Shown piece after piece: positions 11,301-58,515 of a stretch of DNA of 64,000 bases. A program made the translations under genes and the position numbers. The notes beneath the pieces were generated by a model that was not told where the DNA came from, made no database searches, and saw only the letters and a list, made by a program, of their open reading frames with translations. Source of the DNA: Naegleria gruberi (lineage: Eukaryota); NCBI GenBank assembly GCA_000004985.1, contig GG738854.1. One strand, written 5' to 3'. Positions within the stretch are counted from its first letter, which is position 1. Every line of letters begins with the position of its first letter.

Positions 11301-12928
11301 CTTCAATGTGTTTGAATTAATGGCTGCTCCAAACTGGGCACTATTATTAATAAACTGTGAATCAATAACCTTCAAACTGTCTGATGCTATCTCTGAAAAT
11401 TGTTGCAAGTCCAAATAACGAACTGCAGATGCACTGCTCGTTCCCTCAAAAACACATCCAATAATGGATCCATTCCTCACATTTTGTAAGAAGAGAGCTC
11501 CACCATCATTGTCCAAAAATTTTGTACCAACCACAGATGTAGCTTGTGAATCAGCAATAGCAAGAACAGGTAACGTGCCCATATTACTATTTTCCATAAA
11601 GGCAGAGTTTGCAACCAACACAATGTAATAATTTTGAATGGAAACAAAGTGACAGGTTGTGTAACTGAATTGAACATTGGTAATAAAAGCACTAGTACCT
11701 GTCAATGACTCACTACTCTTAACTTGTAAACTTCCAGTAGCATTAAAGTTGGTATCAGAGATTTTAACTTTGGAACACGTTGCACAAGTCATGGCACCAA
11801 CACTGTAACACTGACTTCCAGTGCAATTTGTTGCAAAATTGCTCTTCTCAATTGTGAACTGTCTAGCTGTGTGTCCAAAGATGAAATAGTGTTTTGGTGA
11901 TGTGGATGTGCACTTTTGAGTTGAGGCACCAAGATCTTTACTTTCATCCAAACCAATTGTTACATAACTGGATGCAACATTGAGTGTAAAGGAAACATTT
12001 CTGAATAAAGCTTCACAATTATTATCCAATTCAAAATCAATATATGATTCAGATGGTCCTAAATTCCTCACCACTTGCAAATTTTCATAAAAACAAGTGC
12101 CACCTGAACATTCAACATAAGAATCGACCAGTTTAGAATTTCTAATGACAATATCTGGTTGCCAAGTTGCCGAAAACACATCAAACATTCGATTCAACTT
12201 GTTCATCTCCACCTCTTCAAATATAACTCTTGTTGTGTAAATACTCGAAACATAATCATTCTCTACTGCAATCACAGCATTAACATCCCAATTTACAAAG
12301 GCAATATTGGTGAATGATATTTCCATTTTGAAAGGATTGATTCGTATAAAGGGAGAATAATCAGCACATGAAATGAAAGTCTTTGACAATCCATAAAAGT
12401 TGGCAATAATCTTGCTTTGGATAGCCTCTGAATTGTTATAGTATGGCAAGTCAATTGCACAATTATTACTACCATCACTCACATCTATATTATTCAATAA
12501 ATAAATATTTAATTCTTGTTCTTCCGCTATTATTACATGATAATAATTATAATAGTATTATTAGTATTAATTTACATATGATGATGATTATTATTAATTT
12601 ACATGATGATCATTAATTTACATTGAAAATCAACAAAATTACTATTCGCATATATAAAAACAAACTACCTACCTGTACTAGTCGTATTGAACAGCACACT
12701 CCACCTCTCCAGTACATATTTTAGTGAGTTACATGGCTGAGAAGGGGTAGAACAGGGAAAGAAGTTATTGTTACTGCTGCTACTAGCCTTCGGATCAATG
12801 TAGACACTACTCATTATCTTGGCAATTGTGGTGTTGATGGTCAAAATGTTGAGAAACGATAGCACCACGAGGATAGAAATCAATCGCCACACCTCATGAT
12901 CCCTTCGGGTCATCATTGAATGTCTCAT
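8340..12928 (-). CDS. Receptor-type protein kinase with Pmp-like beta-helix ectodomain, paralog 2
   Basis: Exon 1 is 12928..12673 and begins MRHSMMTRRDHEVWRLISILVVLSFLNILTI (signal anchor). The intron 12485..12672 runs GTAGGT..ATAG; an alternative acceptor would place the exon 2 boundary at 12526. Exon 2 is 12484..8340. The ectodomain (roughly 750 aa) has many GGAVF, GGAIL, GGAMY, GGALY and GGAIF repeats plus FSQN, FQYN and FLHN motifs. The transmembrane segment is ALLISLGVIVALGLTFIILLTTLCLYFF. The kinase domain is in one exon: IGQGGESVIF, VAVK, HRDLKPENIL, DFGLGRE, YMPPE, DSYSFGIIMWELL. There is a long insert between subdomains IX and XI. Stop is TAA. Confidence 0.7.
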
Positions 12929-20712: not shown

Positions 20713-23700
20713 TTACATGAAAAGTGGGCTATCATCACATAATCTGGCAATTTCATACAAATGTTGGATAATTTCCTCAAAGCTTGGTCTTTCATTTGGG
20801 AGCTGATGCCAACACTGTTGCACTAGTTTGATATACTTGGAAACACCTTCAACAAATAGATTGCTGTTCTCATTATTGATTGGTTGAATAAATAATCTTG
20901 TCCATTCCTTCAATTGTTCATCATTTGAGAAGGGAATGTTTGGTCTTTTTCCTCTCACTATCTGGGTAATAACTGTTAGACTGTTACAATCTGACATCTC
21001 TGTAAAATAGTTCATCTTTTTGTGATTGTGAGTCGTATAAGGAACTTCTTCAAAAAAGAGTGACCACATAATAATTCCAAACGAATAGACATCAATCTTG
21101 GATGCATTCTTGATTCTTTCCTCTTTTGATAAGGAAGATCCTCCAAATGTACCTGATCCAATTGATGAATTACTATTCATATTTGAATTGGAATAATGGA
21201 TGGAGTCGGTAGCGTTTGAGAATCCAGAGAACTGTTCATTTTCAAAAAGCTCAGAATTATTAGAAACTCCAGAATCAAAATTCTCTGGAAATATTTGTTT
21301 AACACAGTGAAACTAGAATAAAACTTACCTGGAGGGCAATATAGAAGTGTACCAATGTTCAATGTCATACTAGTTTCAAACATGTTATTTCCAACAATTC
21401 TTGAAAGTCCAAAATCACAAATCTTTACACAATTTTTATCATCAAGAAGTACGTTTGCAATTTGAATGCCAGAATTCAATAAATTGTAATATAAATTACA
21501 TACCTGGTTTCAAATCACGATGACAAATCATATTTGGTTTAAGTGAATGCAAATAGGACATTCCTCTACTCACTCCCATCAAAATATCCAATTTCTGTTT
21601 CATAGTCAACTTTTGGCGACCAACTTTGCATTCACTGATTAGTTTTTCCAAACTACCTCCTTTCATGAATTCAATCACCATATATTTCTGGTTCTTGTTT
21701 GGAACACAAAAACCGTACATTGTAACTATTTCATCTTAAGTTATTTGAAACATAGGGGAATATTACATACCAATATTAGGATGTCTCAAACTAATTAAAA
21801 GTGCTCCTTCTCGTTCAAAAACATCTTCGTCATCTTGGTCCTTGATTGATTTAATTGCTACTTCAATTCCTTTCCATAATCCTTGATAAATCATTGATTG
21901 ACCTCCTTCTCCAATACGTTTCTGAATTGTAATATCCTCGGTTGGAATAATAAATGACGCCTTACTGTTAGGTCTATCCTCAGACTCTTCGAAAATAATC
22001 TTCTTATCAAGTAATACCCTTTCCATTTCAGATTCAGCTCTGGTTCGTTTTCTCAGTAGCTTTGATTTGTATCTAGCAACACAAAGTCCAATTAATCCAA
22101 TACAAGTGGTAATCAATGTCACTGCTGCTAAGCTTGTGACTAGAGGGAGAATGTAAAAAATGTTCACACAACCTGGTGCCTCATATCTATAGAAAGAAGG
22201 GCAAGAATCGAGAATAATATCCACCGTATAAGTTACTCTCTCATAGGTTACTGAAAGCTGCACACTTCTTGCTTCCTTGACTTCAGAATTTGAATACAAG
22301 CTAAAAGGCAGCCTGAAATCAGTATTGTTTGAGGAATCTGTCTTTAAAAACAGACTAGAATCACTAACTTGAAGAGTAATTGGAACCTTAGGTGTTTCAA
22401 TTAATCTTCCAAAAATGTTTCTTGCCTCAATCTCAATAATAAATTTTTGCCCCAAATAGGCTTTTTGAGTACCATTATAAACCGTGTGAGGATTGACATC
22501 AAGCTCAATAACTTTGTACTCAAATTCAAAACAAGGAGAGGAAATAGAGTCGTCATTGTCATAATAGTATTCTTCATTGATATAAATGGACCTATTACTG
22601 AGCACTTCTGAGTATCCAATTTTTCCATATTTTGCAGTGTTTGCATAAAAGACATTACTTGGAGTAATCGTGACCCGTATCTCTTTTGGTGCTTCCCCAA
22701 AGAAAATTACACCTCCCTTCTTTGCTATGTTTCGTTCAAAGTAACTTGTACTTATTTCAGAACTTCCTGTTACATAGAGTGCACCTCCTATGGTGTTTTC
22801 ATTTCCATTTCCAATAAATTTCGAGCCATCCACAGATAACACGTTTATATCGTATTTCGCACGAGACCTATATTCATAAAATATCGCTGAGCCCTTTGGA
22901 GCAACGTTATTGTAAAACTCACAATTCTTGACATGAAAAATAGCACTTGATTCAATATAAATTGATGATGTAGTGCAATTTAAAAATCTGGAATTTTGCA
23001 CAGTAGAAGATTTTTCGAAATAGTCATTGGATGGAATAATAGTATCATACGAAATTACATAATATATTGCTCCATTATAAGCATTTGGTTTCACATTAAT
23101 AAATTCTGAATGATCAACAAGGAAATAATGAATATCTTGCATGTGTAAACAAGTTGCAGAAATGTTGTTACATGACAGGTTTGTAATTTGTAACTCTTTG
23201 CATGTACTGATAAATATCATACTGCCTTGTGTGTTACTGTCATAGACTCTAACATTGTCAATCACTAGTTTGACGATAGAGGATACAAATAGCCAATTGG
23301 TTCCCATTGAAATGTTACTGTTAGTTATGTATGCGTCAATGGAATATCCAATATATAATACAGGATATCCTATTGCAAACGTTCCAATATAATCAATATT
23401 GTCAATAATTATTTCATTAGATTCAATGATTGAAAGTATAGAATCATCTCCAGTATCACACTCAAGTATTTTAACATCATCTACCCTTTCAATGAAGAGT
23501 TTGGCTTTCAGAGCAGAGTTTGTAATTTGCAAAATTCTTGAATTTCCTATAAAAGTATCCCCTCTGATTGTCACATGATCAAGCTCAATAATATCATAGT
23601 TAGCCATTCTCAAGTTTGTATCTGATATATCAACTTGTTGAAATATTGATACAGTTCCTTTTCTTGGTGAAAGAACCATTTGATTATTATATGTAAATTC

Positions 23701-33405: not shown

Positions 33406-35390
33406 ATGTTTCGAAACAGCCATCAAGAGACGTCAAATTTTGCATCAGACGAAAGTGAAGAGAAAGTTGAAGATACAAACGATGAATCATTAGTGAAAAG
33501 ATATGAAAATGAATTGGTACATATAACAGGAACAGAAAATGTTTACGGGTTTAGTTCTTCAACAAGTGCAGAAAGAGTTTCGAATAGTGAATTGATGGTT
33601 TTAGGAAAGGCTGTCACCGAAGGCATTCAACGTTTGAATATTCAAGAAGAAACAGAAGATGGTCCTTCTTCCGTCATTAGTGACAATCGAATAGTTTCAG
33701 AGCCATCATTATCACTCGAAACATTAGTCGAAACTATGCAACAACTCGAAGATTCTCAGAGAACAAACTCGCAACCAAATCAAACTCAACCTCTCACTTC
33801 AAAATTCATTCCCAAAGTAGATCACATACCACATAATGATCCTCAAGATTTGAATTTACTTTCGGATGCTTTCGGATACAGCAGTGCTTATTATTGTTTC
33901 GGTTCTAATGAAGAGAATTTCCTTTCACTGGACTATTCTGCACTTGCTACAAGTGGAGATTCGTATAATGGTGAAGTGATTTCAAAAGTTATGAGAAAAT
34001 CCTTTACAAATCAATCAGTTGTTTTAAACGAAAGTCAACAAGCAAGGAGTGGCTTGGGATTGGTAGATACTAATCAAAATGTTGACACTTCTCCATTCAA
34101 GGTTAGATGTTTGGGTGGAAATGAAGTAGTGGAACATATTAGAATTGGTGCCTACAACTTGGGAGTTATTACACGAAACCTTTCTAATAACTTTTCTAAT
34201 GGAAACTCTAAAACTAACTGCTATATTTCTGGATCTAACGAAAGAGGTCAATTCGGCAGACCAAAATCATTTAAGGGATCGAATGGTCTCATTAAAATTG
34301 ACCATTTCGACAAGAATAATCTAACTTTGAAAGATATTGCCTTTGGCTCTTATTTCACCTTATTTCTAACTGAATGTGGAAAGGTTTTCTCCTGTGGAGA
34401 GAATGAAAATGGTCAACTGGGAACCAATTCTATTTCCAACCAATACGAAATCAAACAAATGCGTGTCATTCATCCAGAAACTAAACTAGAAGAATTTGTT
34501 ACTGACATTGAAACTGGCGCCTTTCACACACTTGCCAAAACTTTGAGTGGAAACATTTATTCATGTGGATATAACTGTTGGGGGCAGTGTGCCATCTCTG
34601 AAATTGATGGAGATGTCATGGTTCCAACACTAATTGATAAATTTGGAAAGGACAAGATTGAGATTGAAAGAGTTATTTGTATTGAACATAATACTTTCTT
34701 TATTACAAAAGCAAATCCATATTCTGAAATTTATGGTAAGTTTTTGTTGTGTTATCAAATAATTATTAAAAGATTTGTTGGAAATTAGGTTGTGGATTCT
34801 CAAAGAAAGGTCAATTGGGAAAGGATTTTGGAGAGGCAGTTAGAAATCCAGTGAAACTGGATTTTTTCACAGGGAAGGATTTGAGTGTTAAGAGTGTGAA
34901 TGGTGGTTGGGGTCATGTCTGTATTGTAACTAATGGAGGTCAAGTATTCTCACAAGGATTGAATGATTATGGTCAATTGGGATTGGGTGATTTAGAATCA
35001 AGAAAATCGCCAACTTTGGTTCCATTCTTTGATCATCTTTACAAAAATTGTAAACTTGATAAGATAGAACAAGTCAGATGTGGAAGTTATCATTCTCTAT
35101 TCCTCACTCGTTCAGGAAAACTCTTTGGATGTGGATACAATGAGATGGGATCCATTGCCTTAGGAAATGAACATTCATGGATTTCCACACCAACCCTAAT
35201 TGTCCAATTCCCAAATTGCCTAATTGGAGAACCATTCTATGAATTGGAGGTTAAAACGTGGTGCTACACAACTTGCATTCTTGTAAAGAAGAGATTTAAG
35301 AGAATTGAGAATATGTTTGGCAGGTTGAGGAATTTATTGGCAAATGAAGAATTTAATTTTGGAGATGTTAAGATTATTTCATTGAATTAG
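33406..35390 (+). CDS. RCC1-repeat (regulator of chromosome condensation-like) protein
   Basis: Exon 1 is 33406..34735. A 53-nt GTAAGT..ATTAG intron spans 34736..34788. Exon 2 is 34789..35390. The N-terminus (about 270 aa) is acidic and Ser-rich. It is followed by at least six RCC1 blades with the GxNxxGQLG motif: GSNERGQFGRP, GENENGQLGTNS, CGYNCWGQCA, GCGFSKKGQLGKD, GLNDYGQLGLGD, GCGYNEMGSIALGN. The start is cgaaaaaaATG. Confidence 0.65.
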
Positions 35391-35507
35391 GAATAAAAGA
35401 TACTTAATCTTAGAATCAGACTTGGAGATTTAACTTTTCACATACTCCATATTTTTGTAATGTTAATTATTTTACCAAAATGGACATGTGTGTCGATTTT
35501 AATATGA

Positions 35508-37033
35508 ATGATTAACATGTCAATGAAATCAATTTCACGTGAAATTAAAAAAATGTCTCATTGGTTTAAAAACAATAATGTAGAGAGTGAAGATGATTCA
35601 GAGGAGGAAGCAGATGGAGAATATGTCGATGAAGAGAATGATGTTGCTGTTCAGGCACAAGCTTCCAATTCTGAACAGCTCTTGGTCAGCGTTTTGAGAT
35701 ACCTAGGAATAGATGATGAGACACTGAACAAGTTAGCTGATGAAAACTACATTTCTTCATTACAAAGCAACTTGATTGACATTCCTTCGTATTTACAAAC
35801 CAAGTTGGACAGCATTTTCTCAACATCTTTGAATAATTTTGAGTATGACAGCTGTCTTGGTGGAGGTGGTTGTGGAGTTGTGTTGAAATGTAGACACAAA
35901 ATGGATGGTAAAATGTACGCTCTAAAGTTTATTCCCTTTGCTGATGAAGACGATGATTCGAATGGTCAAATATCCATCAATGAAGCATTGAAAGAAGTCA
36001 AAATTTTGTCTTCACTGCATCACGAGCATACAGTACGATATTACAATAGCTTTATTGAAAAGGAAATTCCAGAATCATTTAAAAAAGACATTATCCATGT
36101 TTGTAAAGAAAATGCAATAGAGATTTCTGATAAGTTTCTCGTCATTCAGATGGAATGTTGCTTCACTAACTTGGGTTCATTCCTCGACAAATATAAAATT
36201 GGAAAAGGAGAAAGAAACCAACTCAGATCTTTTCTTAGACAAACACTTACTGGACTCTCCTATCTCCATAGAGAGGGAATTGTGCACTACGATATCAAAC
36301 CTCATAACATTCTAATCAGTGAAGAAAACAAAATCAAGATTACTGATTTTGGATTGAGTGCTACAGCAGGAAGATCCTCTGTTGGAGAGTGTGCTGATGA
36401 TTGTGGAACATCTCTTTATTTTACTGACAAATTTCAAAAAGAAGAAAGGGATTTGTTTGCTTTGGGAATTACTTATTTCCTAATGTAAGTAAGGGTACTT
36501 AGTTGAATAGTAATTCAATATAAATAATCGATAGGATTAACAATGATAATCGTGAGGCCAGTAAATTGAAACAAGACCCAAATAATTATGAATTCTCAAT
36601 TGATTTTACAGATATGGACAAGATGTTGATTAAGAAAATGCTTACTAATCCAACTAGTGCAGATGAGTTGATTAAAATAATTGACAAGAGCAAATATTTT
36701 TGCTGCAATTGCAATTTAGAACGTATTGGAATGGTACAGTTCATTGAGCATGAGAAATCTGAAGCGCATGTCAAAAAAATTGACCTCAACAAACAGCTTT
36801 CCAATATTACCGACGCAACCAATGCTCTAATTCGTATTTCTCAATCATGCAACATTCCTGAACCAATCTATAGCCATCCTTTAAATACAAGTTTCACTTG
36901 TAAGATAGATTTCAAAGCTAAAAGTCTGACTTCAAATGTTCATTCTACGAAAAAAGCTGCCAAAAACGAAGCTTCTCAATTAATGTTGGATCTTATTAAG
37001 GGAGAATGTTGTCAATTATTGAAAGACTCATAA
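35508..37033 (+). CDS. Protein kinase with C-terminal U1/JAZ-type C2H2 zinc finger and dsRNA-binding motif
   Basis: Exon 1 is 35508..36484. A second ATG at 35552 follows an A-run. A 50-nt GTAAGT..GATAG intron spans 36485..36534. Exon 2 is 36535..37033. The kinase domain has LGGGGCGVVLKCRH, YALKFI, HYDIKPHNILI (a non-RD kinase), ITDFGLS and DLFALGITYFLM. The next element is YFCCNCNLERIGMVQFIEHEKSEAHVKK (C-x2-C-x12-H-x5-H, a U1/matrin/JAZ-like finger). The last is a dsRBM-like segment, NALIRISQSCNIPEPIY...FTCKIDF...STKKAAKNEASQLMLDLI. Confidence 0.6.
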
Positions 37034-37352
37034 GAATATACAATTACTCCACCGTACGATTAGAAATAACAGAATGAGATTTATTAGAAACAAGGATGTG
37101 AAGATTTCTTAATTCTAGAACGAATAAAAGTAATTAACATATTCAATGAATTCTGTAGATGTGTGAAATTGTTGCAAATTGTTTCAAAATTTGTTGGAAC
37201 CTTGTGTATCATGCACCAATTTAGTAGTTGACCATCATTCCAACTCTTAAATCATCATTTTAAAATAACCAATAAGGAAAGTAGCAAGATAATCGAAAGA
37301 TTCTCCACACCTTCATCATTTTAAACACAATTCAAAAAAACAAGTCAACCAA

Positions 37353-38046
37353 ATGTCAAGCAATTACCAAACAGAAATTGTTGAAAAGTGGAACCAAGCT
37401 TTGACTCTTGCTCAATCCTACGAAAATGCCCCAGAAAAGTTTACTTCACACAGCAAGGGAGAAGTGACCATTACTGCATGTCAACATTCGGATGGGACTG
37501 TCATCAAGGGAGAGGTAAGTAAATTGGTTGGCCTTTTTATGTGAAAATTATATTCGAAAGTGCATTATTTCTAATTGTAAAGCTGCAGAATTAGTTAATA
37601 TTCTGGAAGTGACAGACGTCCAAACTAGACAAAAATTCGATAACAAGACCAAAACCCTTAAAGTTCTCGAAGATTTCACTCATCAAAATGAAAAATTCAG
37701 TGTCAGACATTATGTCACCTTGTCGCCAACTGTCATTATTTCAGAACGCGATTTTCTCTATGTAGAACATTGCCAAGTTTCTGAAAATTCCACAATTTAT
37801 CTTACAACATCTGTAGATGGAATCTTCCCTTCTGACAAATGTATAGCTGTCGGTGTCAGAGCAACGAACGTTTTTAATTATTTGAAAATGATTCAAGAAG
37901 GTGATGATTTGAGAGTTGTATTCATTGGACAATATTTACCAGGTGGATGGATTCCAACAGCAGTTGCTAATCAGGCTGTGTACGAAAGACCTTTGGGTGT
38001 TGTCAATGCTGCAAAATGCATTGGAAAATCAACTAGAGGGGTTTAA
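37353..38046 (+). CDS. START / Bet v1-like (SRPBCC) lipid-binding domain protein
   Basis: Exon 1 is 37353..37514. A 46-nt GTAAGT..GAAAG intron spans 37515..37560. Exon 2 is 37561..38046. The C-terminal ...QYLPGGWIPTAVANQAVYERPLGVVNAAKCI resembles the START-domain C-terminal helix region. The length is about 215 aa. Confidence 0.55.
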
Positions 38047-38825
38047 TTAGTTCAATAATAAAATAGACGAAAGTTTTTTGTTCGAAAGATTTTAACTTCA
38101 CCACCACTGAAGATTTCTTACTCATTTACATATCAGAAGATACCAACACTCAGTTTTCGATATTTTACAAGAGGAACTTTCATAGTTTTGATAACTGAAG
38201 CAATTGTGAATACCACCAATATTAGACAAGAACCCAGAAGAACACCACTAACATCTTCTACAAACAACCACAAATTCCATGCCAATTTCTGTTCGGCCGA
38301 ATCGTCTAGATTTGTACAGATGATAACAGAATGAAATAGAACTTACAGTATCATGACTTTCAGCGTAGTCCATTCTTAAATTTTCCTATTGCCATAATAA
38401 TCCAATGATATTGGAAGGTAAGGATCACTTGGAATCAATAAGGATCTTGTTCTCAGTGCCATACTACTCAATTATTAAGAGTTCATTGTGAATTGGAAGC
38501 GCAATATTATCACACACAAGATTATGTCGGACATTTAAGGTATTATACTCTGTGTGAGAGGGAGAAATATTAAGCCACTGTACAGATCGGTCACCTACCC
38601 AACCACTATCAAACTCCACTTAATCAATGTCCAACGAATGGAGAATTAGTTTTGTGTGTGGTCATGAGAAGAGACATCAGTTTTAATGGAGGAAATGTTT
38701 GGCGGGAATGTTGTGGACTTGTTAATTTGTGCTTGCGAGATGATTCAACACCAATCGATTTAAAGATGTGTGTTGAATTGTTTGTGGAATCATCAAAAAA
38801 AAACAAGCTTAACACACAACTCAAT

Positions 38826-40226
38826 ATGACTGAGGAGAATATCAAGAAATTCTCTTGGGAAGAAATTGAGAAACACAACCATGAGGAAAGTGCTTGGTTG
38901 GTTATTGATGGAAAGGTTTATGATGTAACCAAGTTTATTCCTCATCATCCTGGTGGTGATTACTTGTTATTGGGAGCTGGCAGACATTCGACTGAATTGT
39001 TTCTCAGTAATCATCCAGCCAAAATCCTAAACAATTCGAAAGCTCTATTAGAAAAGTATTACATTGGAGAGGTTGAACAAGAAACAATCGTCACTAAAGA
39101 AATGGTTCAAAAGCAACATGTCAAGTATTCTTACAATCCACCAGATCAAACCAATTTCTATCTTGAATGTAGAGCTCAAGTTGACCAATATTTGAAAGAC
39201 AACAATCTCACTGCTAGAGATGTTCCTCAAATGTATCTCAAGATGATTCTTTCCCTGTGTATTTGGTTTATTCTATACTTGGGAACTTTCTATTATTTCG
39301 AATCAAAATTGCTCAGTTTCGTCGTTGCCATTGTTTGGGGTTGGTCCAATGCAAATATTGGTGTTAACATGATGCATGATGCTAATCATAGCTCCTTTTC
39401 CAATCATCCAACTATCAACAGAGTTGTGGCAGTTGTTTGTTTTGACATTTTAGGTGGTTCTTCCTATGTTTGGAAAATGATTCACTCAGTTGGCCATCAC
39501 GTAAACACAAATATTGAAGAACGTGATCCTGACATTCACACAGGAGAACCTCACTTTAGAAAAATCAAATCAGCTCAGAAACATCATTGGTGGTATGCCT
39601 ATCAACATTATTACTTGCCAGTTCTATATTGTTCCTTATTATTTGAGTTGGCATTTCGTGATTTCTTTGCCATGATGATTGGATCATGGGGAGGTGTCAA
39701 ATTTCAACCACCTCCAAAAGGAGAATATTTGCTCTTCTTTTCTACAAAGATTTGGTGGTTGACCTATTCATTGGCTTTCCCAATTTGGTTTTCTAATCAT
39801 TCAGTTGGAACTATTTTCATGTTGTGGTGTACTGCTTATATGGTTGCTTCATTCTTGTTGGTTTTAATTTTCCAAGTCAACCATGTCACAAATATTGCTG
39901 ATTCTTTCCATGTCAATCAACAAGATGGAATGGTTCATGCTGATTGGGCAGCAACTCAAGTAAGTGGATCGAGTAACTTTGCCTGTGGATCATGGTTATG
40001 GAATCACTTGTCAGGTGGCTTGTGTCATCAAGTAGAACATCATCTTTTCCCATCCATTAGTCATATCCATTATCCAAAGATTCAACCCATTGTTGAGAAG
40101 TGTGCTAAAAAGTATGGAATCAAGTATAATAGTTATGGAACTTTTTGGGAGGCCATTATTGGTCATTTCACATTATTAAGGGATATGGGTCAGAAGGGAA
40201 TTCAATCAAATTGGAAATCCATGTAA
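38826..40226 (+). CDS. Cytochrome b5-fused front-end fatty acid desaturase
   Basis: An N-terminal cytochrome b5 domain contains the HPGG heme-binding motif (VYDVTKFIPHHPGGDYLL). Three histidine boxes are present, HDANH, HSVGHH and QVEHH; the Gln in box 3 is typical of front-end (delta-4/5/6/8) desaturases. Four transmembrane segments are present. An alternative upstream ATG exists at 38664. Stop is TAA. Confidence 0.8.
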   Translation: MTEENIKKFSWEEIEKHNHEESAWLVIDGKVYDVTKFIPHHPGGDYLLLGAGRHSTELFLSNHPAKILNNSKALLEKYYIGEVEQETIVTKEMVQKQHVKYSYNPPDQTNFYLECRAQVDQYLKDNNLTARDVPQMYLKMILSLCIWFILYLGTFYYFESKLLSFVVAIVWGWSNANIGVNMMHDANHSSFSNHPTINRVVAVVCFDILGGSSYVWKMIHSVGHHVNTNIEERDPDIHTGEPHFRKIKSAQKHHWWYAYQHYYLPVLYCSLLFELAFRDFFAMMIGSWGGVKFQPPPKGEYLLFFSTKIWWLTYSLAFPIWFSNHSVGTIFMLWCTAYMVASFLLVLIFQVNHVTNIADSFHVNQQDGMVHADWAATQVSGSSNFACGSWLWNHLSGGLCHQVEHHLFPSISHIHYPKIQPIVEKCAKKYGIKYNSYGTFWEAIIGHFTLLRDMGQKGIQSNWKSM

Positions 40227-40321
40227 ATAATAAATTGTTAACAACAAAAGAAATGAATTGTTTGGATTTATGAGTTTCTAATTGTTTCTAATTTTAATTC
40301 CATTCAAAAAAAGTTGAGGAT

Positions 40322-40975
40322 TTAATATTCAATTTCTTCAAAATCAATTTCATCCTCTTGAACACATGCGCCCATTACAACCATAGGTGGTACCAAGATT
40401 GAGTATTGGGTTGTGAATGCAACACAATTTCCTTTTTGTGTATTCGAAAGGAAAGATTCCATCGAATCAACTTTGTAAACATTCTTATTGCAAACATTAC
40501 AATATCTAATTGATGAGCTTTCAGGAGTACAAGTTAATTGATCATAATTGAGTGGACATTTGTAAATCCATTCACAATTTTCAATCATTTTTTCATCATT
40601 TCCTGATGTTACAAAATTAGGAATGTCCAATTTAAACAAATCAGAGTTGACTGAATTGTTATTGCCATGTAACTTGACATGTTGTAATCTTCTTCTCAAG
40701 AGATGCATCCAATTCTTAATATTCAACTGCTTTTCAAATTTTGGATAATAAGCAAAAACGAGCGGTTTCCAAATCAATTGCTGAACTCGTTCAAAATCCA
40801 AGGTTTCATCTTCACTTTCCTTTTTCTTCTCACCAATTTTCTCCCTTTTCACATTAAAAAACAACATTAATAATCGACTATTACACAACGACAAACCATT
40901 CAATTGTCTCACATCCATAAATTGTGCAATATTGATCATCAATTCCATCGGCAAATCAACCTTCATCTTTTCCAT
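40322..40975 (-). CDS. Hypothetical F-box-like protein
   Basis: 217-aa ORF from ATG at 40975 to TAA. The N-terminal LPMELMINIAQFMDVRQLNGLSLCNSRL is F-box-like. A short upstream ORF (41132..40963, MPLFRNFFKQ...) overlaps in another frame and may be a uORF or a missed exon. Confidence 0.4.
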   Translation of the reverse strand: MEKMKVDLPMELMINIAQFMDVRQLNGLSLCNSRLLMLFFNVKREKIGEKKKESEDETLDFERVQQLIWKPLVFAYYPKFEKQLNIKNWMHLLRRRLQHVKLHGNNNSVNSDLFKLDIPNFVTSGNDEKMIENCEWIYKCPLNYDQLTCTPESSSIRYCNVCNKNVYKVDSMESFLSNTQKGNCVAFTTQYSILVPPMVVMGACVQEDEIDFEEIEY

Positions 40976-41264
40976 ATAAATTCCGACATGATTTTTGCAG
41001 AATTTTGTTCAACAATTCGTTGATCATTCTTGGCAAGTGGTGCTTGTGTACGAATCTCCACTTGTGAAATATCATCACTCGCATCAGCAATGTTACTTTT
41101 TGATGGCTGCTTGAAGAAATTTCTGAATAACGGCATTTTTTTGTGTGTGAAATTCAAGTTGTGAGTTCATGGAAGTTCAGCTGACTAGTAAGTACGCGAT
41201 GGGATGAATAAGAAGGAATAGGCATTGTAAAAGGAGTAAATTTAGTTTGTATAGGTGTGGATTT

Positions 41265-42587
41265 TTAGTTTTGATAAGGTTTCATTTCATAATCGGTGAA
41301 AGAAGGATACATGGATGATGATGGAGTGGAAATATTTTGAGAACTTTCCTGATAGTTGAATGTTGGATTGATTTGATTTTCAATTATTGGAGGAAGAGTA
41401 TATTTGTTGATTGCTTCAATGTACACTTGTGGATTGTTGGTTTTTTCGAGTAGAACTAATGTTGAGGGAGGATTAGTTTCATGTTTCAATTCAATGCATA
41501 ATTTAGAATGGGATGCTGTTAGGAAATGACTTTCGTTGTGATGTTCATCCTCAAAATCATTCCAAGCTCTGGAAATTGACGAGAGTTCAATTGAGATTAA
41601 TTCAACTTTCCAACCATTTGCCTTCATAATCATAATTTTCATATTTGTTAACAATACATTAACACTAAATTTGTTAAAAGTATGTTTGTAAAATGCAATG
41701 AATATAACTAAACAGAGCCAAGCAGCACCAACGCTCAAAATGGAAGCAATTGTTAAAAAGGAAATTACTGTAAATAATATAAGTGGAATAATTGCAATGA
41801 GAATGTAAAATATTTTCATACGCCAAGAAATTCCACCCTCTTGATAAAATTCATGATATTGCAATTCCTCATCTGAAATTAATTGGGATGCTGCAATATT
41901 TCTTTGATTAACATTACCAAATATGGATTTGGCATCTTTCAGTCCATTCCATTTTGAAAAAACTGATTCTCCTTGGACACTCTTCTCAAAATGTCCACAA
42001 AATAGAAAAACATCCTTTTCCCTTCCCTTATAACTCTTGAACATTACAATAAATATGGTCACACACTTGGCCACAGCAAGAGTCGCACCAATTGTAATAC
42101 AGAAATAGATTAGCAAATTTCGTCCCCCAAAACTCTCAAATTCTGGATTGCTCATGAGTGAAATATCTTGATTTTTAACTTTTTCATGATTTCTCATCAT
42201 TTGAAAAACATTTCCACGACAAGGAAACTGACCACCATAATATTTCTTACAAGTTTCTGCCTTGTTGGCCGAATCTGATCGACAAAATTCATTCCATTCC
42301 ACTTGAGTTGGATAGCCCATCATGGAAACATTGGCATTATAAAAGTACACCAAGCCATCAGAGCTCGTTTTCATATTGGACAAGCTCTCCACTTGACATG
42401 TAAAACCTCTATAGTGCAACAATTGTGTCATGTCCAGAAATATACAGGACATGAAAAGAAACACTGCAGACACTAGCGGAATCACGAGTCTCGCAGCAAT
42501 ATTTCCACAATTGATATAGACCAGCTTTTTTGTGTGGTTAGATTCGGAAAGTGATGAAAAATTGGTGTGCTGCCGATTTATAGACAT
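41265..42587 (-). CDS. Hypothetical multi-pass membrane protein with Cys-rich luminal region
   Basis: 440-aa ORF from ATG to TAA with four hydrophobic segments (for example IPLVSAVFLFMSCIFL, LLIYFCITIGATLAVAKCVTIFIVMF, IFYILIAIIPLILFTVISFLTIASILSVGAAWLCLVIFIAF). A Cys-containing loop lies between TM1 and TM2. Confidence 0.45.
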   Translation of the reverse strand: MSINRQHTNFSSLSESNHTKKLVYINCGNIAARLVIPLVSAVFLFMSCIFLDMTQLLHYRGFTCQVESLSNMKTSSDGLVYFYNANVSMMGYPTQVEWNEFCRSDSANKAETCKKYYGGQFPCRGNVFQMMRNHEKVKNQDISLMSNPEFESFGGRNLLIYFCITIGATLAVAKCVTIFIVMFKSYKGREKDVFLFCGHFEKSVQGESVFSKWNGLKDAKSIFGNVNQRNIAASQLISDEELQYHEFYQEGGISWRMKIFYILIAIIPLILFTVISFLTIASILSVGAAWLCLVIFIAFYKHTFNKFSVNVLLTNMKIMIMKANGWKVELISIELSSISRAWNDFEDEHHNESHFLTASHSKLCIELKHETNPPSTLVLLEKTNNPQVYIEAINKYTLPPIIENQINPTFNYQESSQNISTPSSSMYPSFTDYEMKPYQN

Positions 42588-42728
42588 TTTTTTTGAAGTT
42601 TAATTTTATTGATGAGTTGGAATCAGGTTAGAATCGTAGAAGAAGAACTCTTAATCCATTACGGAGTTTGGTTATTAATCAAAATTGTTTTTTATGTTTT
42701 TTCTCAGGAATGCAAATTGTTGGCATAA

Positions 42729-44018
42729 TTAGTTGTGGATGGCGTTGGCCAAACCAATTCTCATATTTTGCTTATCATAAACAGTGTAGAAGAGAGATTG
42801 GAAGAGAGAACCAAAGATCCATTGACCAGCTTTGAGTTGATCGGCCTTATTGATACCACCTTGACAGACAGAAGGTCCAAAGATTGGTGGCTTGTTTTCA
42901 ATGACAAAGTTATGTGGTTCAATAGAATATTCATTGCCACCAATGACAAAAGTAAAGGTTGGAATTCTAGAGAATTGAATTTGAGAACAATCAGCTGGAA
43001 GACTGACATTGGCAAAAAGTTGCATAGCAGAGAAGGTGATTGGATCAGTAAACATGGCATAAGCACTTGTATCAAAAGTAGCAAGACACTTGACTCCAGT
43101 ACCAGGACCACATGTTAAATAATTGACCAAATTACCATTAACCTTAAGACCATCGAATTCAATCATCCAATTCTTTGAACCAGTTGGAATTGGATAGAAA
43201 TTCATTGGACCCTTATAGTAATCAGTTGAGTAACCACCCAAAACCAAAGCTCCTTTACCCTTTTGCTTTTGTTGATTTGGATTCTTGAGTTCACTCAAAT
43301 AAATAGAAAAGACATAGCTGCTAACTAGTTTTTGTTGCACAACATAATCCATAATGGATGGGAATGAATAGACATAGTTTGCACTTGGTTCTGGACTCAA
43401 ATTCAAACCAAGGAATCCATCAAATTGCAAAAAGCTTTCCTCAAAAGAATCATCACTCTTAACCAATTCAGCAAAAGTAACATTCTTAATTGTCAAATCA
43501 GCTCCATTATCCAAAATAAGTCCCATTTGATCATTGGCAAGTGTTCCAAAGAATTCAAATTCTCCCAAATACCAATCAACTTGTCTTCCATCTTTCTTGT
43601 AAGTGCTTGACTTGGAAGAATCATACTTTGGATGTCTGAAACATTGCATTCCACACAATGTAGAAGTAACAGTCAATAATCCTCCATTAGTATTAACCAT
43701 AAGCTTGAAAGTATTACTCTTATCTGAACCAAAATGTACATTGGCATAATAATAGAACTGTTTTCATTGACAATTCATCAAAATCATAATAAATTCATCA
43801 AGTAACAATAAGTGTCATCATCATTAATATTAATATAAAAATTTAAATATTTAGCAACGTACATTGTTATAATCCTGAAGAGGAACAACCATCAATGATT
43901 CACCACTCACTCCCTTCATCTTCTCCTTTGAAAAGTTTCTCATTGGAATGGCTCCCGACACACAGACAGCCAAAGCCAACACGATGGCTACAGAAATTAT
44001 GGCAGTAAATTGACGCAT
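42729..44018 (-). CDS. Pepsin-like (A1 family) aspartic peptidase homolog, predicted catalytically inactive
   Basis: Exon 1 is 44018..43863 and carries the signal peptide MRQFTAIISVAIVLALAVCVSGA. A 105-nt GTACGT..AACAG intron spans 43758..43862. Exon 2 is 43757..42729. The N-terminal lobe aligns with pepsins: QDYNNFYYYANVHFG...FKLMVNTNGGLLTVTS against QYYGEI.IGTP.Q.F.VIFDTGSSNLWV. DTG is replaced by NTN in the first catalytic motif. In the second, the sequence reads ATFDTSAYAMF, with DTS in place of DTG. Confidence 0.6.
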
Positions 44019-44365: not shown

Positions 44366-46123
44366 ATGATTCTCTATCTCTTGCTCTTTCTCACGGTTGC
44401 TCTGATGGTAGCAGCCTCATTGTTGCTCCCCTTCGTAACGAGTATACAATATCCGAAGAGGAATCGTTTTCAATTAAAACAAGCACAACATTTTCCGATA
44501 TGGTTGGTTGTATTGGTAGAGTTTAGGAGGAGAGTTGTGTTTTTATTGGATTTTATTGTTCATTATATTCATGTAAATTATACAATGAAGCCACAAGAGT
44601 TGAGTCCGAAAGTTGGAGAGTATGGAAAATTGGATGTTGAAATTGTCAAACCAATTAAAGATGACACTCCACAACAACATTTTGGAATGTTATCACCTAC
44701 AGATGCTCCTTTTCCACCTTCACATTATTGTTTTCAATTTGAAGGATTTTTGGATAGAAAATTGTTTGTAGAATCCCTTTCGGAAGTTTTAAAGCACATT
44801 CCTAGATTGGGTTCTAAATTGGTCGAGTTCAAATCTTTGGATGAATTGAAGAGAGGAACTGCTGGATGGTTTGATGAGTTGGGTAATATGGAGAGAAGAA
44901 TTGTTGAAGGCAGACTTTTGAATGCTAAAAAGCCAATAACACTTTTTGATTTGAGAGATGCCCAATTGGAAGTTTGTTTTGCTGAAGATGACACTATTAA
45001 AACAAATGATGAAACTGGATTATTGACAGCCACTGATTTGGCAAAGAATATGCACATTCTTTCTGTGTTCGGTGTTAGAGGACCAATCAAGGTTATCCAC
45101 TCCGAACCAACAGATCCACTCACAAGACTTCAAGTTACTTATTTACGTAAAGCAAACAAGACTGCTCTCACCATTTATATGGATCATGCTGTTGGAGATG
45201 CTTCTTCCATCTCAATGTTCATGCAATTGTTGGGTGATATTTTGAGTGCAAAGCAAACTGGAAAGGAATTCAAACCACGTAATCTTCCAGTTTGCAATCC
45301 TGTTCCTATCTTTAAATTTGGATACAATAAGGAAGCAGAAAAGTTAGATGATTTCCTATTCACTTATTATGATCCTACTGCATGCTATTCCTTCTTCAGA
45401 GCTGAAGTATTCAAATATCTAGATCAAAACTCTAAAAATCCAGCAAAAATTATTGCCAAAGAAATTACTGTCAATAAGAAACAATTGGATCAATTGAAAA
45501 AGAAGATTTTGAACGAAACTCCTGAACTGAATGATGTTGCCTTCAGCACCAATGACATGTTAAATGTTTTACTTTTGAGATCTGTTGCTTTTGGAGACAA
45601 GATTAATAGAATTGGCAGCGAAAAGTTATTGACATTGAGATATGTTGCTTCATTTAGAGAACGTTGTGATTATATTACTAGTAATTATTTTGGAAATGCT
45701 TTTGGAATTATCTTTGATAGTGTATCCAAGAAGGAATTGTTGGAAATGACTACTGGTGAATTAATCCTCTTAGCAAAGAAGAATACTGAAAAGACTGTTA
45801 ACAATCAAGGTTATTGGGAAACTAAATTGGAAGAAATGAATCAAAGATATTTCGACCCTCTCCAAGTTGACTTTGGTTTCCCTGCCTTTGAAGGAAGTGA
45901 AAACTTTATGGGAGTCACAAATTGGGTCAAACCAATGTTAGAAATTGGTTCTCACTTCCAAGATAAATCCTATCTGGGTATCAGTACTCTTTGCATGCCA
46001 TTCCCTCATGTAAATAAGATTCTACCAACCTCAACAACTGATCCAGATGGTGGTGTTAGATTGGTGCTTTCCTTGTATGAGCCTGAATACTTGTATTTCG
46101 TTGGAGAAATTCCAAAAGTTTAA
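44366..46123 (+). CDS. HxxxD-motif acyltransferase (CoA-dependent acyltransferase superfamily; WS/DGAT-, BAHD- or condensation-like)
   Basis: 585-aa ORF from an A-run ATG (caaaaATG) to TAA. The N-terminus is a signal-anchor-like MILYLLLFLTVALMVAASLLLPF. The catalytic-type motif is YMDHAVGDASS (HxxxD). An alternative internal start sits at 44585 (MKPQELSPK). Confidence 0.55.
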   Translation: MILYLLLFLTVALMVAASLLLPFVTSIQYPKRNRFQLKQAQHFPIWLVVLVEFRRRVVFLLDFIVHYIHVNYTMKPQELSPKVGEYGKLDVEIVKPIKDDTPQQHFGMLSPTDAPFPPSHYCFQFEGFLDRKLFVESLSEVLKHIPRLGSKLVEFKSLDELKRGTAGWFDELGNMERRIVEGRLLNAKKPITLFDLRDAQLEVCFAEDDTIKTNDETGLLTATDLAKNMHILSVFGVRGPIKVIHSEPTDPLTRLQVTYLRKANKTALTIYMDHAVGDASSISMFMQLLGDILSAKQTGKEFKPRNLPVCNPVPIFKFGYNKEAEKLDDFLFTYYDPTACYSFFRAEVFKYLDQNSKNPAKIIAKEITVNKKQLDQLKKKILNETPELNDVAFSTNDMLNVLLLRSVAFGDKINRIGSEKLLTLRYVASFRERCDYITSNYFGNAFGIIFDSVSKKELLEMTTGELILLAKKNTEKTVNNQGYWETKLEEMNQRYFDPLQVDFGFPAFEGSENFMGVTNWVKPMLEIGSHFQDKSYLGISTLCMPFPHVNKILPTSTTDPDGGVRLVLSLYEPEYLYFVGEIPKV

Positions 46124-58316: not shown

Positions 58317-58515
58317 TGAATCCATTTTGGTAATATAGAATCATTTTATTTGCCAATATATTTTCCTTTTTTGTCACTTAACGATTCTGACAACCAATGA
58401 TGGCGATGTTAGTGAGTTACAGAAATGGCGGGTAAAACATGAAATCTCAATTCTTATTAAAAAAAACATCATTAACCCTTCTTGAATACAAAAAGATATT
58501 GGTTTGCTTTTTAAA

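What the first reader, a model, noticed from the sequence alone, without database searches (positions are those of the whole stretch)
35508..37033. Protein kinase fused to a U1/JAZ-type dsRNA-binding zinc finger and a dsRBM: a possible PKR-like dsRNA-sensing kinase with inverted domain order
After a 50-nt intron the kinase domain (non-RD, HYDIKPHN; ITDFGLS) continues into a Cys2His2 finger with the spacing C-x2-C-x12-H-x5-H and flanking aromatic and basic residues (YFCCNCNLERIGMVQFIEHEKSEAHVKK). This is characteristic of matrin, U1-C and JAZ fingers, which bind double-stranded RNA. It is followed by an alpha-beta-beta-beta-alpha dsRBM-like segment ending in the family-typical basic helix STKKAAKNEASQLMLDLI. 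A kinase with two independent dsRNA-binding modules is reminiscent of vertebrate PKR, which has dsRBMs at the N-terminus and phosphorylates eIF2-alpha. This fusion could be an independently evolved dsRNA-activated kinase relevant to antiviral or stress signalling. The N-lobe insert between the VAIK-equivalent and the hinge (EKEIPESFKKDIIHVCKENAIEISDKF) recalls the inserts typical of eIF2-alpha kinases.
Basis: partly seen in the sequence, partly recalled or inferred. Interest (0 to 1): 0.65.

Follow-up and report, generated by a model that had tools for sequence, protein, structure and literature searches.

The report
Kinase fused to dsRNA-binding-type modules
A Naegleria gruberi gene really does join a stress-kinase-like enzyme to a zinc finger and a degenerate double-stranded-RNA-binding motif; the layout mimics the vertebrate antiviral sensor PKR, has no counterpart in any other sequenced organism searched, and its function is untested.

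Summary
The window is Naegleria gruberi. The described gene is real. Two exons (35508..36484 and 36535..37033) flank a 50-nt GTAAGT..TAG intron, and the product equals the deposited model XP_002680267.1 / D2V6X5 ("CAMK family protein kinase", start at M16).

- **Kinase:** it has all catalytic residues but is non-RD (HYD). Its best matches are eIF2-alpha kinases, above all GCN2, and it carries the family-typical beta4-beta5 insert. My tree is inconclusive. Several PKR/GCN2 functional residues are missing: the R262/D266 dimer salt bridge, T446, T487, the APE Glu and the subdomain-XI Arg.
- **Zinc finger (C382, C385, H398, H404):** it gets no Pfam hit. It does match bona fide JAZ/zf-met fingers significantly.
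- **dsRBM:** it scores just under Pfam's threshold (22.7 against 23 bits). It aligns over the whole domain and keeps KKxAK. It lacks the alpha-1 Glu and the GPxH loop, so it resembles degenerate "type B" dsRBMs.
- **Structure:** prediction of the tail failed.
- **Distribution:** no orthologue was found anywhere. The gene sits in a 7.3-kb segment absent from the syntenic locus of two relatives.

The PKR-like interpretation is an architectural analogy that is only partly supported. RNA binding and the eIF2-alpha substrate are untested.

The parts
35508..36484 (+). Exon 1 of the kinase gene. The first ATG is at 35508; the deposited model starts at the ATG at 35553 (M16). It encodes the acidic N-terminal region and most of the kinase domain.
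36485..36534 (+). 50-nt spliceosomal intron (GTAAGT...GATAG), phase 2, inside kinase subdomain IX/X. The neighbouring RCC1-like gene has the same style of intron (34736..34788).
   Evidence: The kinase alignments run across the junction.
36535..37033 (+). Exon 2: end of the kinase domain, the zinc finger, the dsRBM-like domain and the stop codon TAA (37031..37033).
35577..35645 (+). Acidic tract, residues 24-46: 13 D/E and no K/R. It lies inside a predicted helical, low-confidence N-terminal region (residues 1-107, pI 4.1).
35829..36685 (+). Protein kinase domain, residues ~108-376, interrupted by the intron. It is PEK/GCN2-like. Catalytic residues present: G-loop 117-125, K140, E163, D262, N267, D280.
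36060..36140 (+). 27-residue insert between beta4 and beta5 (residues 185-211), at the position of the eIF2-alpha-kinase inserts.
   Evidence: absent from WEE1, MYT1, IRE1, CDK2 and PKA in the same alignment; predicted as helix plus strand with high confidence.
36285..36308 (+). Catalytic loop HYDIKPHN (residues 260-267). Non-RD: Tyr replaces the Arg.
36692..36778 (+). Single C2H2 zinc finger of JAZ/zf-met (U1-like) type, residues 379-407. Ligands C382, C385, H398, H404; spacing C-x2-C-x12-H-x5-H.
   Evidence: There is no direct Pfam hit.
36800..37003 (+). Divergent dsRBM-like domain, residues ~415-482. The alpha-1 to beta-1 spacing is canonical. The beta1-beta2 loop is shortened by 6 residues (no GPxH). 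Beta-2 is FTCKIDF. Alpha-2 carries the KKxAK motif.
36950..36964 (+). KKAAK (residues 465-469), which matches the KKxAK 'region 3' dsRNA-contact motif of dsRBMs.
35391..42728 (.). Context: a 7.3-kb segment holding this gene and four others. It has no counterpart at the syntenic position between the RCC1-like gene and the Asp-protease gene in N. lovaniensis or in a third Naegleria-like assembly.

Best explanation
This is one real, intact N. gruberi gene. So far it is known from this species only. It encodes a soluble, probably active, non-RD Ser/Thr kinase. The catalytic domain is a divergent offshoot of the eIF2-alpha-kinase (PEK) family, closest to GCN2. It is fused at its C-terminus to one JAZ/U1-like C2H2 zinc finger and one degenerate dsRBM.

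Most likely mechanism (inferred, not shown): the basic tail (pI 8.7) tethers the kinase to A-form duplex or structured RNA, or to an RNP. The kinase then acts on RNA-associated substrates, or is concentrated or dimerised on RNA. eIF2-alpha is the leading substrate candidate but is unproven.

The protein is an architectural analogue of PKR, assembled independently with different modules in the opposite order. It is not a PKR orthologue. It lacks the RD arginine, a T446-equivalent and the R262-D266 salt bridge, so any activation cannot follow PKR's route of activation-loop autophosphorylation. The acidic activation loop (ECADDCGT) fits a kinase that does not need loop phosphorylation.
For: - Gene and fusion.
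- PEK affinity: the top 17 distinct PDB sequences are GCN2, PERK or PKR, ahead of the first other family. GCN2 is on top for the N-lobe alone (top 9 all PEK) and for the C-lobe alone. Panel scores are GCN2 88 bits, PKR 72, PERK 71, against CAMK1 38. The insert, the IQMExC motif, the D289/Y293/Y323 triad and the EFxxDF motif are shared. The top Foldseek hit is the PERK kinase domain.
- Catalytic residues are present and the kinase domain is predicted with high confidence.
- Finger: E 2e-6 to 8e-4 against 1.84e9 proteins, only to multi-finger zf-C2H2_jaz/zf-met proteins. Ligands stay in register. hhalign gives 94.9%. The score exceeds the 99.9th percentile of ligand-fixed shuffles.
- dsRBM: Pfam E 1.6e-4; own profile 17.7 bits against a shuffle maximum of 7.5; hhalign 80.6% over the whole domain; KKxAK intact.
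- Literature: PKR-type dsRBD-kinase fusions are reported only from jawed vertebrates (PMC11305385; PMC5025754).
Against: - No experiment or structure supports RNA binding. AlphaFold gave pLDDT 30-58 for the tail.
- The dsRBM is below Pfam's gathering score, and the finger has no Pfam hit.
- dsRBM regions 1 and 2 (the alpha-1 Glu and the GPxH loop) are lost.
- The tree placement is weak.
- The eIF2-alpha docking Thr (T487) and the dimer salt bridge are not conserved. The APE Glu and the subdomain-XI Arg are lost, and the alphaG-alphaH region is shortened.
- No orthologue exists to show purifying selection.
Confidence: 0.45

Rival explanations
1. Full PKR analogue. dsRNA from viruses or stress binds the ZnF-dsRBM tail and drives dimerisation and activation. 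The kinase then phosphorylates eIF2-alpha Ser51 and shuts down translation as an innate defence.
For: The architecture combines a PEK-like kinase with two module types known to bind dsRNA. The beta4-beta5 insert, the N-lobe D/Y/Y triad and a possible E490-S-K493-like alphaG stretch are present. The gene is lineage-specific and lies in a variable genomic segment, as is common for defence genes.
Against: R262/D266, T446 and T487 equivalents are absent, the kinase is non-RD, and the C-lobe is remodelled around alphaEF-alphaG, where eIF2-alpha docks. There is only a single, degenerate dsRBM. The nearest kinase is GCN2, not PKR. No functional data exist.
Confidence: 0.18
2. The tail is a protein-protein or dimerisation module, not an RNA sensor. 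A degenerate 'type B' dsRBM, as in Staufen dsRBD5, together with the finger mediates self-association or docking to a partner. This would give constitutive or partner-controlled kinase activity.
For: The only PDB match to the tail, and its best full-length alignment, is a Staufen dsRBD whose alpha-1 (SRLMQIQQA) resembles the query's NALIRISQS. The alpha-1 Glu and the GPxH loop are lost, and Pfam matches only profile positions 29-64. From established knowledge: PEK kinases are activated by dimerisation, and degenerate dsRBMs such as STAU1 RBD5, PACT-3 and TRBP-3 mediate protein contacts.
Against: KKxAK, the main phosphate-backbone contact, is perfectly kept. The dsRBM is basic (pI 9.35). It is paired with a second module of a dsRNA-binding finger class.
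Confidence: 0.2
3. The gene is a young, evolutionarily transient chimera made by exon or domain shuffling in a rearranged region. It would have little or no selected function and might be on its way to becoming a pseudokinase.
For: No orthologue was found in 1.84e9 representatives or 5.8e9 clusters. The control search recovers the neighbour's N. lovaniensis orthologue at 59% identity. The gene is absent from the syntenic loci. The otherwise near-universal APE-Glu/subdomain-XI-Arg salt bridge is lost, and the dsRBM is degenerate.
Against: The ORF is an intact 491 codons with a correctly phased intron, all catalytic residues, all four zinc ligands and KKxAK. The kinase core is predicted confidently.
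Confidence: 0.12
4. The fusion is a gene-model artefact, and the kinase and the ZnF-dsRBM are separate products.
For: No cDNA evidence was available to me.
Against: Kinase subdomains X-XI, the finger and the dsRBM share one uninterrupted exon. Only the 50-nt intron restores the frame, and the kinase alignments cross the junction. An independent deposited model is identical.
Confidence: 0.03

Closest known systems
Vertebrate PKR (EIF2AK2)
   Same: A PEK-family-like kinase domain with a beta4-beta5 insert, joined in one polypeptide to dsRBM-type nucleic-acid-binding modules. The D289/Y293/Y323 N-lobe triad is conserved.
   Different: PKR has two or more canonical N-terminal dsRBMs. Here there is one C-terminal degenerate dsRBM plus a JAZ-type finger. 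The kinase is closer to GCN2. It is non-RD and has no R262/D266, T446 or T487 equivalents. The PKR clade is restricted to jawed vertebrates (PMC11305385), so this is not an orthologue.
GCN2 (EIF2AK4) kinase domain
   Same: It is the best sequence match overall and for each lobe. Shared motifs include HHExxVRYYNxxIE, IQMExC and EFxxDF.
   Different: There is no RWD, pseudokinase, HisRS-like or C-terminal ribosome-binding domain. The protein is only 476-491 aa. The SRY..D/E salt-bridge residues and the T-x-M-E-R alphaG motif are not kept.
Fish PKZ
   Same: It sets the precedent that a PKR-type kinase can exchange its nucleic-acid sensor for another module type (Z-alpha) (PMC7137213, listed).
   Different: PKZ nests inside the vertebrate PKR clade and keeps its sensor at the N-terminus. 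The Naegleria protein is unrelated by descent.
JAZ/ZNF346, ZMAT3 (wig-1) and dsRBP-ZFa type zinc fingers (Pfam zf-C2H2_jaz PF12171, zf-met PF12874)
   Same: The ligand spacing C-x2-C-x12-H-x5-H is identical to validated fingers, with an aromatic residue before the first Cys and KK after the last His.
   Different: Those proteins carry several fingers and no kinase. This finger does not reach any Pfam model.
Degenerate ('type B') dsRBMs such as Staufen dsRBD5
   Same: The C-terminal third, including KKxAK, is conserved, while regions 1 and 2 are lost. A Staufen dsRBD is the only PDB match.
   Different: The E-value of that match is 1.9, so it is not significant alone. The query has an additional 6-residue deletion in the beta1-beta2 hairpin.
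Deposited annotation: 'CAMK family protein kinase' (XP_002680267.1 / D2V6X5)
   Same: The sequence and the intron are the same.
   Different: CAMK assignment is not supported: CAMK1 scores 38 bits and AMPK 41 bits, against 88 for GCN2. The precomputed domain list holds only kinase models, so the finger and the dsRBM are unannotated.

Membership tests
eIF2-alpha kinase (PEK) family | The kinase domain is most similar to PEK members rather than to any other kinase family. | tested here: met
   The top 17 distinct PDB sequences are all PEK. The N-lobe top 9 are all PEK, and the C-lobe top 4 are GCN2. In the panel, GCN2 scores 88 bits, above all non-PEK kinases (64 or less).
eIF2-alpha kinase (PEK) family | An insert lies between strands beta4 and beta5 of the N-lobe. 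| tested here: met
   There is a 27-residue insert at the same alignment position as the PKR, PERK and HRI inserts. It is absent in WEE1, MYT1, IRE1, CDK2 and PKA.
eIF2-alpha kinase (PEK) family | The domain is placed phylogenetically inside the PEK clade. | tested here: inconclusive
   In the NJ tree the query is a long branch next to PEK+WEE. An all-PEK sister group appears in 111 of 300 bootstraps. The panel is small, and most reference sequences were recalled from memory; five were validated against PDB.
eIF2-alpha kinase (PEK) family | Back-to-back dimer interface: the R262-D266 salt bridge (PKR numbering). | tested here: not met
   R262 aligns with T and D266 with N (STSLNNFE against KRFGMDFK). 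The D289/Y293/Y323 triad is kept.
eIF2-alpha kinase (PEK) family | An activation-loop Thr (PKR T446) together with an RD catalytic loop. | tested here: not met
   The catalytic loop is HYD instead of HRD. The T446 position aligns with Ala within ECADDCGT.
eIF2-alpha kinase (PEK) family | Helix alphaG substrate-docking residues (PKR T487, E490). | tested here: not met
   No Thr or Ser falls at the T487 position in any plausible register (NNDNREASK). A Glu and an S-K can be aligned with E490 and S492-K493 only in one register. The alphaG-alphaH region is shorter.
eIF2-alpha kinase (PEK) family | The kinase phosphorylates eIF2-alpha on Ser51. | not testable with these tools
   This needs a yeast growth and eIF2-alpha-P assay or an in vitro kinase assay.
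PKR (EIF2AK2) orthologue group | N-terminal tandem dsRBMs, and a kinase domain that clusters with vertebrate PKR. | tested here: not met
   There is a single C-terminal dsRBM-like domain. The kinase is nearer to GCN2 than to PKR. The clade is reported only from jawed vertebrates.
dsRBM (Pfam PF00035 dsrm) | The sequence reaches the Pfam gathering score. | tested here: not met
   Scores are 21.5 bits (128-aa tail) and 22.7 bits (77-aa piece) against a cut-off of 23. E is 3.7e-4 and 1.6e-4. Only profile positions 29-64 of 66 are matched.
dsRBM (Pfam PF00035 dsrm) | Similarity over the whole alpha-beta-beta-beta-alpha domain that is beyond chance. | tested here: met
   hhalign gives 80.6% probability and E 1.3e-5 over template columns 5-69 of 71. 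The HMM score is 17.7 bits against a maximum of 7.5 in 5000 shuffles. The sole PDB hit is a Staufen dsRBD.
dsRBM (Pfam PF00035 dsrm) | RNA-contact regions: the alpha-1 Glu (region 1), the GPxH loop (region 2) and KKxAK (region 3). | tested here: inconclusive
   Region 3 is intact (KKAAK 465-469). In region 1 the Glu aligns with Arg. Region 2 is removed by a 6-residue deletion.
dsRBM (Pfam PF00035 dsrm) | The domain adopts the alpha-beta-beta-beta-alpha fold. | tested here: inconclusive
   AlphaFold without homologues gave pLDDT 42 for the tail alone, and 30-58 for the tail within the full-length model.
U1-like / JAZ zinc finger (PF12171 zf-C2H2_jaz, PF12874 zf-met, PF06220 zf-U1) | A direct Pfam model hit. 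| tested here: not met
   No zinc-finger family appears at E<=10 for the 491-aa, 128-aa or 40-aa queries.
U1-like / JAZ zinc finger (PF12171 zf-C2H2_jaz, PF12874 zf-met, PF06220 zf-U1) | Ligand spacing and flanking residues as in validated fingers, with significant similarity to them. | tested here: met
   The only non-self hits in 1.84e9 proteins (E 2.2e-6 to 7.7e-4) are proteins whose fingers score 47-89 bits on zf-C2H2_jaz or zf-met. C, C, H and H stay in register. hhalign gives 94.9% and E 4.8e-8. The finger scores 18.0 bits, above the 99.9th percentile of ligand-fixed shuffles.
CAMK group (deposited annotation) | The kinase domain is most similar to CAMK-group kinases. | tested here: not met
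   CAMK1 scores 38, AMPK 41 and DAPK1 57 bits, against 88 for GCN2. These three are also the most distant in the distance matrix.
WEE1/MYT1 family (also non-RD, with similar N-lobe motifs) | Best similarity to WEE-family kinases, and no beta4-beta5 insert. | tested here: not met
   WEE1 scores 41.6 and MYT1 61.4 bits, against 88 for GCN2. The insert is present, and the motif is DFG rather than WEE1's DLG.

The most novel reading that the evidence does not exclude
A free-living heterolobosean amoeba independently assembled a dsRNA-responsive eIF2-alpha kinase from a GCN2-like catalytic domain, a JAZ-type finger and a dsRBM. It would be the first PKR-type sensor outside jawed vertebrates. It would also be evidence that kinase-mediated translational shut-off in response to duplex RNA arose convergently in protists, for example against the RNA of viruses that infect Naegleria.
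Probability: 0.17. Interest if true: 0.8.

Novelty: new variant of a known kind. Interest (0 to 1): 0.5.

Why it matters
Current surveys state that kinase-dsRBD fusions of the PKR type exist only in jawed vertebrates (PMC11305385; PMC5025754). Those surveys use Pfam-level domain calls, which this protein escapes. Its dsRBM sits 0.3-1.5 bits under threshold, its finger gets no hit, and it is filed as "CAMK".

If the tail binds duplex RNA, this would be a natural second example of the molecular tinkering proposed for the origin of PKR: an eIF2-alpha-kinase-like domain capturing RNA-binding modules. It would be built with other parts, in the opposite order, and on a non-RD kinase. That would bear on how easily nucleic-acid-sensing kinases evolve and on innate defence in protists.

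If the tail does not bind RNA, the protein is still a clear case of an orphan chimeric kinase in a lineage-specific genomic segment.

Tried and rejected
1. AlphaFold2 on the 128-aa tail alone gave pLDDT 41.9. In the full-length model with a 45-sequence kinase alignment, the tail blocks had pLDDT 30-58. No structural verdict on the finger or the dsRBM was possible, so no fold search of the tail was attempted.
2. The search for homologous proteins with the 86-aa dsRBM piece returned one candidate and no score, not even the protein itself. I treat this as a technical null.
3. Foldseek of the full model against PDB put the PERK kinase domain first and GCN2 at ranks 5, 11, 29 and 38, with CDK2, TNIK and PDK1 interleaved. 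It does not discriminate between families.
4. The NJ tree is inconclusive because the query is a long branch. An earlier run timed out.
5. Scans of viral contigs and metagenome contigs found no relative. The single metagenome locus, L001, is a generic kinase at 22% identity.
6. CAMK, WEE1/MYT1 and IRE1 (which shares DLKPHNILIS) were considered and rejected on scores and on the insert.
7. I found no terminal direct or inverted repeats around the 7.3-kb species-specific segment, so nothing points to a mobile element.
8. Literature searches by accession (D2V6X5, XP_002680267, EFC47523) and by topic found nothing on this protein.
9. I did not build a tail alignment seeded with canonical dsRBMs for AlphaFold.
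Full report
**Source and gene structure.** The window has about 34% G+C and short GTAAGT...TAG introns. The spliced product of 35508..36484 plus 36535..37033 is 491 aa. It is 100% identical to the Naegleria gruberi protein XP_002680267.1 / EFC47523.1 / UniProt D2V6X5, 476 aa, annotated "CAMK family protein kinase", which begins at the second-choice start M16 = 35553. The intron (36485..36534, 50 nt, phase 2) lies inside the kinase domain. The Pfam Pkinase match (residues 112-398, E 1e-37) and the pairwise alignment to yeast GCN2 (query 109-360) both cross the junction at residue 326/327. The end of the kinase, the zinc finger and the dsRBM-like segment share one uninterrupted exon. The fusion is therefore not an artefact of gene modelling. 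The upstream RCC1-like gene has the same style of intron (34736..34788).

**The kinase: similarity.** All catalytic residues are present: G-loop LGGGGCGVV 117-125, K140, E163, HYD with D262, N267 and DFG 280-282. AlphaFold2 with a 45-sequence alignment models the core confidently, with most 10-residue blocks above pLDDT 90. Against every distinct PDB sequence, the top 17 hits are eIF2-alpha kinases: GCN2 6e-29 to 2.7e-20, PERK 5e-20 and PKR 1.7e-19. The first other family follows at 1.8e-17 (CDKL3), and HRI comes at 2.9e-16. The N-lobe alone gives nine PEK hits before any other family. The C-lobe alone puts GCN2 in the first four places, then a flat plateau of generic kinases.

**The kinase: panel scores.** I wrote a reference panel from memory. 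PKR, PERK, HRI, WEE1 and MYT1 were checked against PDB chains as essentially identical, gapless matches at about 2.2 bits per residue. The yeast GCN2 sequence was taken from the alignment printed. The scores are GCN2 88 bits, PKR 72, PERK 71, HPK1 64, CDKL2 62, MYT1 61, HRI 61, WEE1 42, AMPK 41 and CAMK1 38. The deposited CAMK label is not supported.

**The kinase: shared and missing features.** The alignment shows a 27-residue insert at exactly the beta4-beta5 position of the PEK inserts. It also shows the HHExxVRYYNxFIE and IQMExC motifs, the PKR D289/Y293/Y323 triad and a GCN2/PERK-like EFxxDF motif. A neighbour-joining tree, however, leaves the query as a long branch beside PEK+WEE, and an all-PEK sister group appears in only 111 of 300 bootstraps. 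Foldseek puts the PERK kinase domain first but interleaves CDK2 and TNIK. Several residues that carry the PKR/GCN2 mechanism are absent:
- R262 aligns with T and D266 with N, so the dimer salt bridge is missing.
- The RD arginine is Tyr.
- The T446 position is Ala within an acidic ECADDCGT loop.
- No Thr falls at the T487 docking position.
- APE is TDK, and the subdomain-XI Arg is gone.
- The alphaEF-alphaF and alphaG-alphaH regions are shortened.

My reading is that this is a divergent PEK-derived, GCN2-like kinase, probably active, whose substrate cannot be deduced.

**The zinc finger.** C382-x2-C385-x12-H398-x5-H404 gets no Pfam hit, even when submitted as a 40-aa peptide. An exhaustive phmmer search of the 128-aa tail against 1.84 billion representatives found only the protein itself and five weak hits (E 2.2e-6 to 7.7e-4). 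All five fall on the finger. All five are multi-finger proteins whose fingers score 47-89 bits on zf-C2H2_jaz or zf-met. Pairwise alignments keep the four ligands, the preceding aromatic residue and the trailing KK in register. A profile of 21 fingers from those proteins matches the query with hhalign probability 94.9% and E 4.8e-8. The HMM score is 18.0 bits, above the 99.9th percentile (13.7) of shuffles in which the four ligands are held fixed; the maximum of 5000 such shuffles is 20.6. The class assignment (JAZ/matrin/U1-like) is supported by transitive rather than direct evidence.

**The dsRBM-like domain.** Pfam dsrm is the only family matched by the tail: 21.5 bits (E 3.7e-4) on the 128-aa piece and 22.7 bits (E 1.6e-4) on a 77-aa piece, against a gathering score of 23. 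The match covers profile positions 29-64 of 66. The only PDB sequence matched at E<=10 is a Staufen dsRBD (7e4v_A, E 1.9), and that alignment covers the whole domain. I built a profile from dsRBMs recalled from memory, which were not individually validated. It gives 17.7 bits against a maximum of 7.5 in 5000 shuffles. hhalign gives 80.6% probability and E 1.3e-5 over template columns 5-69 of 71. In the alignment the spacing from alpha-1 to the P-x-Y of beta-1 is canonical. Beta-2 (FTCKIDF) and alpha-2 with KKAAK (= KKxAK) are conserved. The alpha-1 Glu is Arg, and a 6-residue deletion removes the GPxH loop. This is the pattern of degenerate "type B" dsRBMs. From established knowledge of Staufen RBD5, PACT-3 and TRBP-3, such domains often mediate protein contacts. 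Structure prediction could not help because no homologues exist: pLDDT was 42 for the tail alone and 30-58 for the tail in the full-length model.

**Distribution and context.** No orthologue was found in the 5.8-billion-cluster search, in the exhaustive tail search, in viral contigs or in metagenome contigs. As a control for database coverage, I searched the upstream RCC1-like neighbour (my spliced model equals P0060). It has a 59%-identical orthologue in N. lovaniensis (P0061) and another in a Logan assembly (P0062). In both of those loci a convergent Asp-protease gene follows the RCC1 gene after 36-39 bp. The N. gruberi orthologues of that protease and of the next gene (a transferase) lie at 42729..43700 and 44366..46123. 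About 7.3 kb (35391..42728) therefore has no counterpart at this position in the two relatives. This segment holds the kinase gene, a gene with no Pfam match, a cytochrome-b5/desaturase fusion, an F-box-like ORF and a multi-TM ORF. tblastn of the kinase and of the tail finds nothing in those two loci. The third lineage groups with N. lovaniensis, so I cannot distinguish an insertion in N. gruberi from a deletion in the other lineage. No terminal repeats flank the segment.

**Literature.** A survey of 246 organisms concluded that kinases with dsRBDs form one clade, PKR (with PKZ nested inside), which is present only in jawed vertebrates (PMC11305385). Another paper states that PKR is absent from plants, fungi, protists and invertebrates (PMC5025754). 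Nothing in the searchable library mentions this protein or a Naegleria eIF2-alpha kinase with RNA-binding modules.

**Mechanism.** Shown: one gene; an intact PEK-like non-RD kinase; a JAZ-like finger; a dsRBM-like domain with KKxAK; a basic tail (pI 8.7) and an acidic N-terminus (pI 4.1, with a 23-residue tract holding 13 D/E). Inferred: the tail tethers the kinase to duplex or structured RNA, or to an RNP. That would localise or cluster the kinase, which then acts on RNA-associated substrates, with eIF2-alpha the leading candidate. Activation cannot copy PKR's loop autophosphorylation. The acidic N-terminal tract might mask the basic tail until RNA competes for it; this is speculation.

**Rival explanations.**
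- A true PKR analogue (0.18).
- A tail that serves as a dimerisation or protein-docking module (0.20).
- A transient orphan chimera (0.12).
- A gene-model artefact (0.03).

**Verdict.** This is a new variant of a known kind: a nucleic-acid-module-bearing kinase of the eIF2-alpha-kinase family. It is an analogue of PKR and not a member of the PKR group. Interest is moderate (0.5). The architecture is unique and contradicts a stated distribution, but it occurs in a single species, both RNA-binding modules are marginal or degenerate, and the functional claims are untested.

Noticed in passing
window 35391..42728, compared with L002 (N. lovaniensis PYSW02000032.1) and L003 (Logan SRR29240419): A 7.3-kb block of five genes sits between the RCC1-like gene and the convergent Asp-protease gene. 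In two related genomes those two genes are 36-39 bp apart. No flanking repeats were found, and I could not resolve whether this is an insertion or a deletion.
   Followed up: partly
window 38652..40226 (+): Inside the species-specific block there is an ORF with an N-terminal cytochrome-b5 domain (E 1e-20) fused to a fatty-acid desaturase domain (E 1e-30), the layout of a front-end desaturase. The true start is probably an internal Met.
   Followed up: no
window 37353..38046 (+), 40322..40975 (-), 41265..42587 (-): Three further ORFs lie in the block and have no confident Pfam family. The first is a two-exon gene directly downstream of the kinase. The second has a sub-threshold F-box match (E 0.005). 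The third is a 440-aa ORF whose long hydrophobic stretches suggest a membrane protein.
   Followed up: no
window 53289..58316 (+) and 58504..63558 (+): Two tandem ORFs of 1675 and 1684 aa share the same architecture: TPR_TmcB, PAS, then an adenylate/guanylate cyclase catalytic domain (E 2e-51 and 2e-52). They look like a local duplication of a sensor cyclase gene.
   Followed up: partly
window 8340..12497 (-): A 1385-aa ORF carries a C-terminal protein kinase domain (E 1e-47) and a weak Chlamydia-PMP-type repeat match. It is unrelated to the finding: 25% identity to the query kinase. Weaker kinase-like tblastn hits also occur near 2187..2375, 17294..17404 and 21339..21482.
   Followed up: partly
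window 33406..34735 + 34789..35390 (+): The upstream neighbour is a 643-aa RCC1-repeat protein with a 53-nt intron. My spliced model is identical to the deposited 'predicted protein' (P0060). Its long N-terminal region is poorly conserved, even with N. lovaniensis.
   Followed up: yes
database record XP_002680267.1 / D2V6X5: The public name 'CAMK family protein kinase' conflicts with the similarity ranking, in which GCN2, PERK and PKR are on top and CAMK members are near the bottom. The precomputed domain list shows only kinase models, so the finger and the dsRBM are unannotated.
   Followed up: yes
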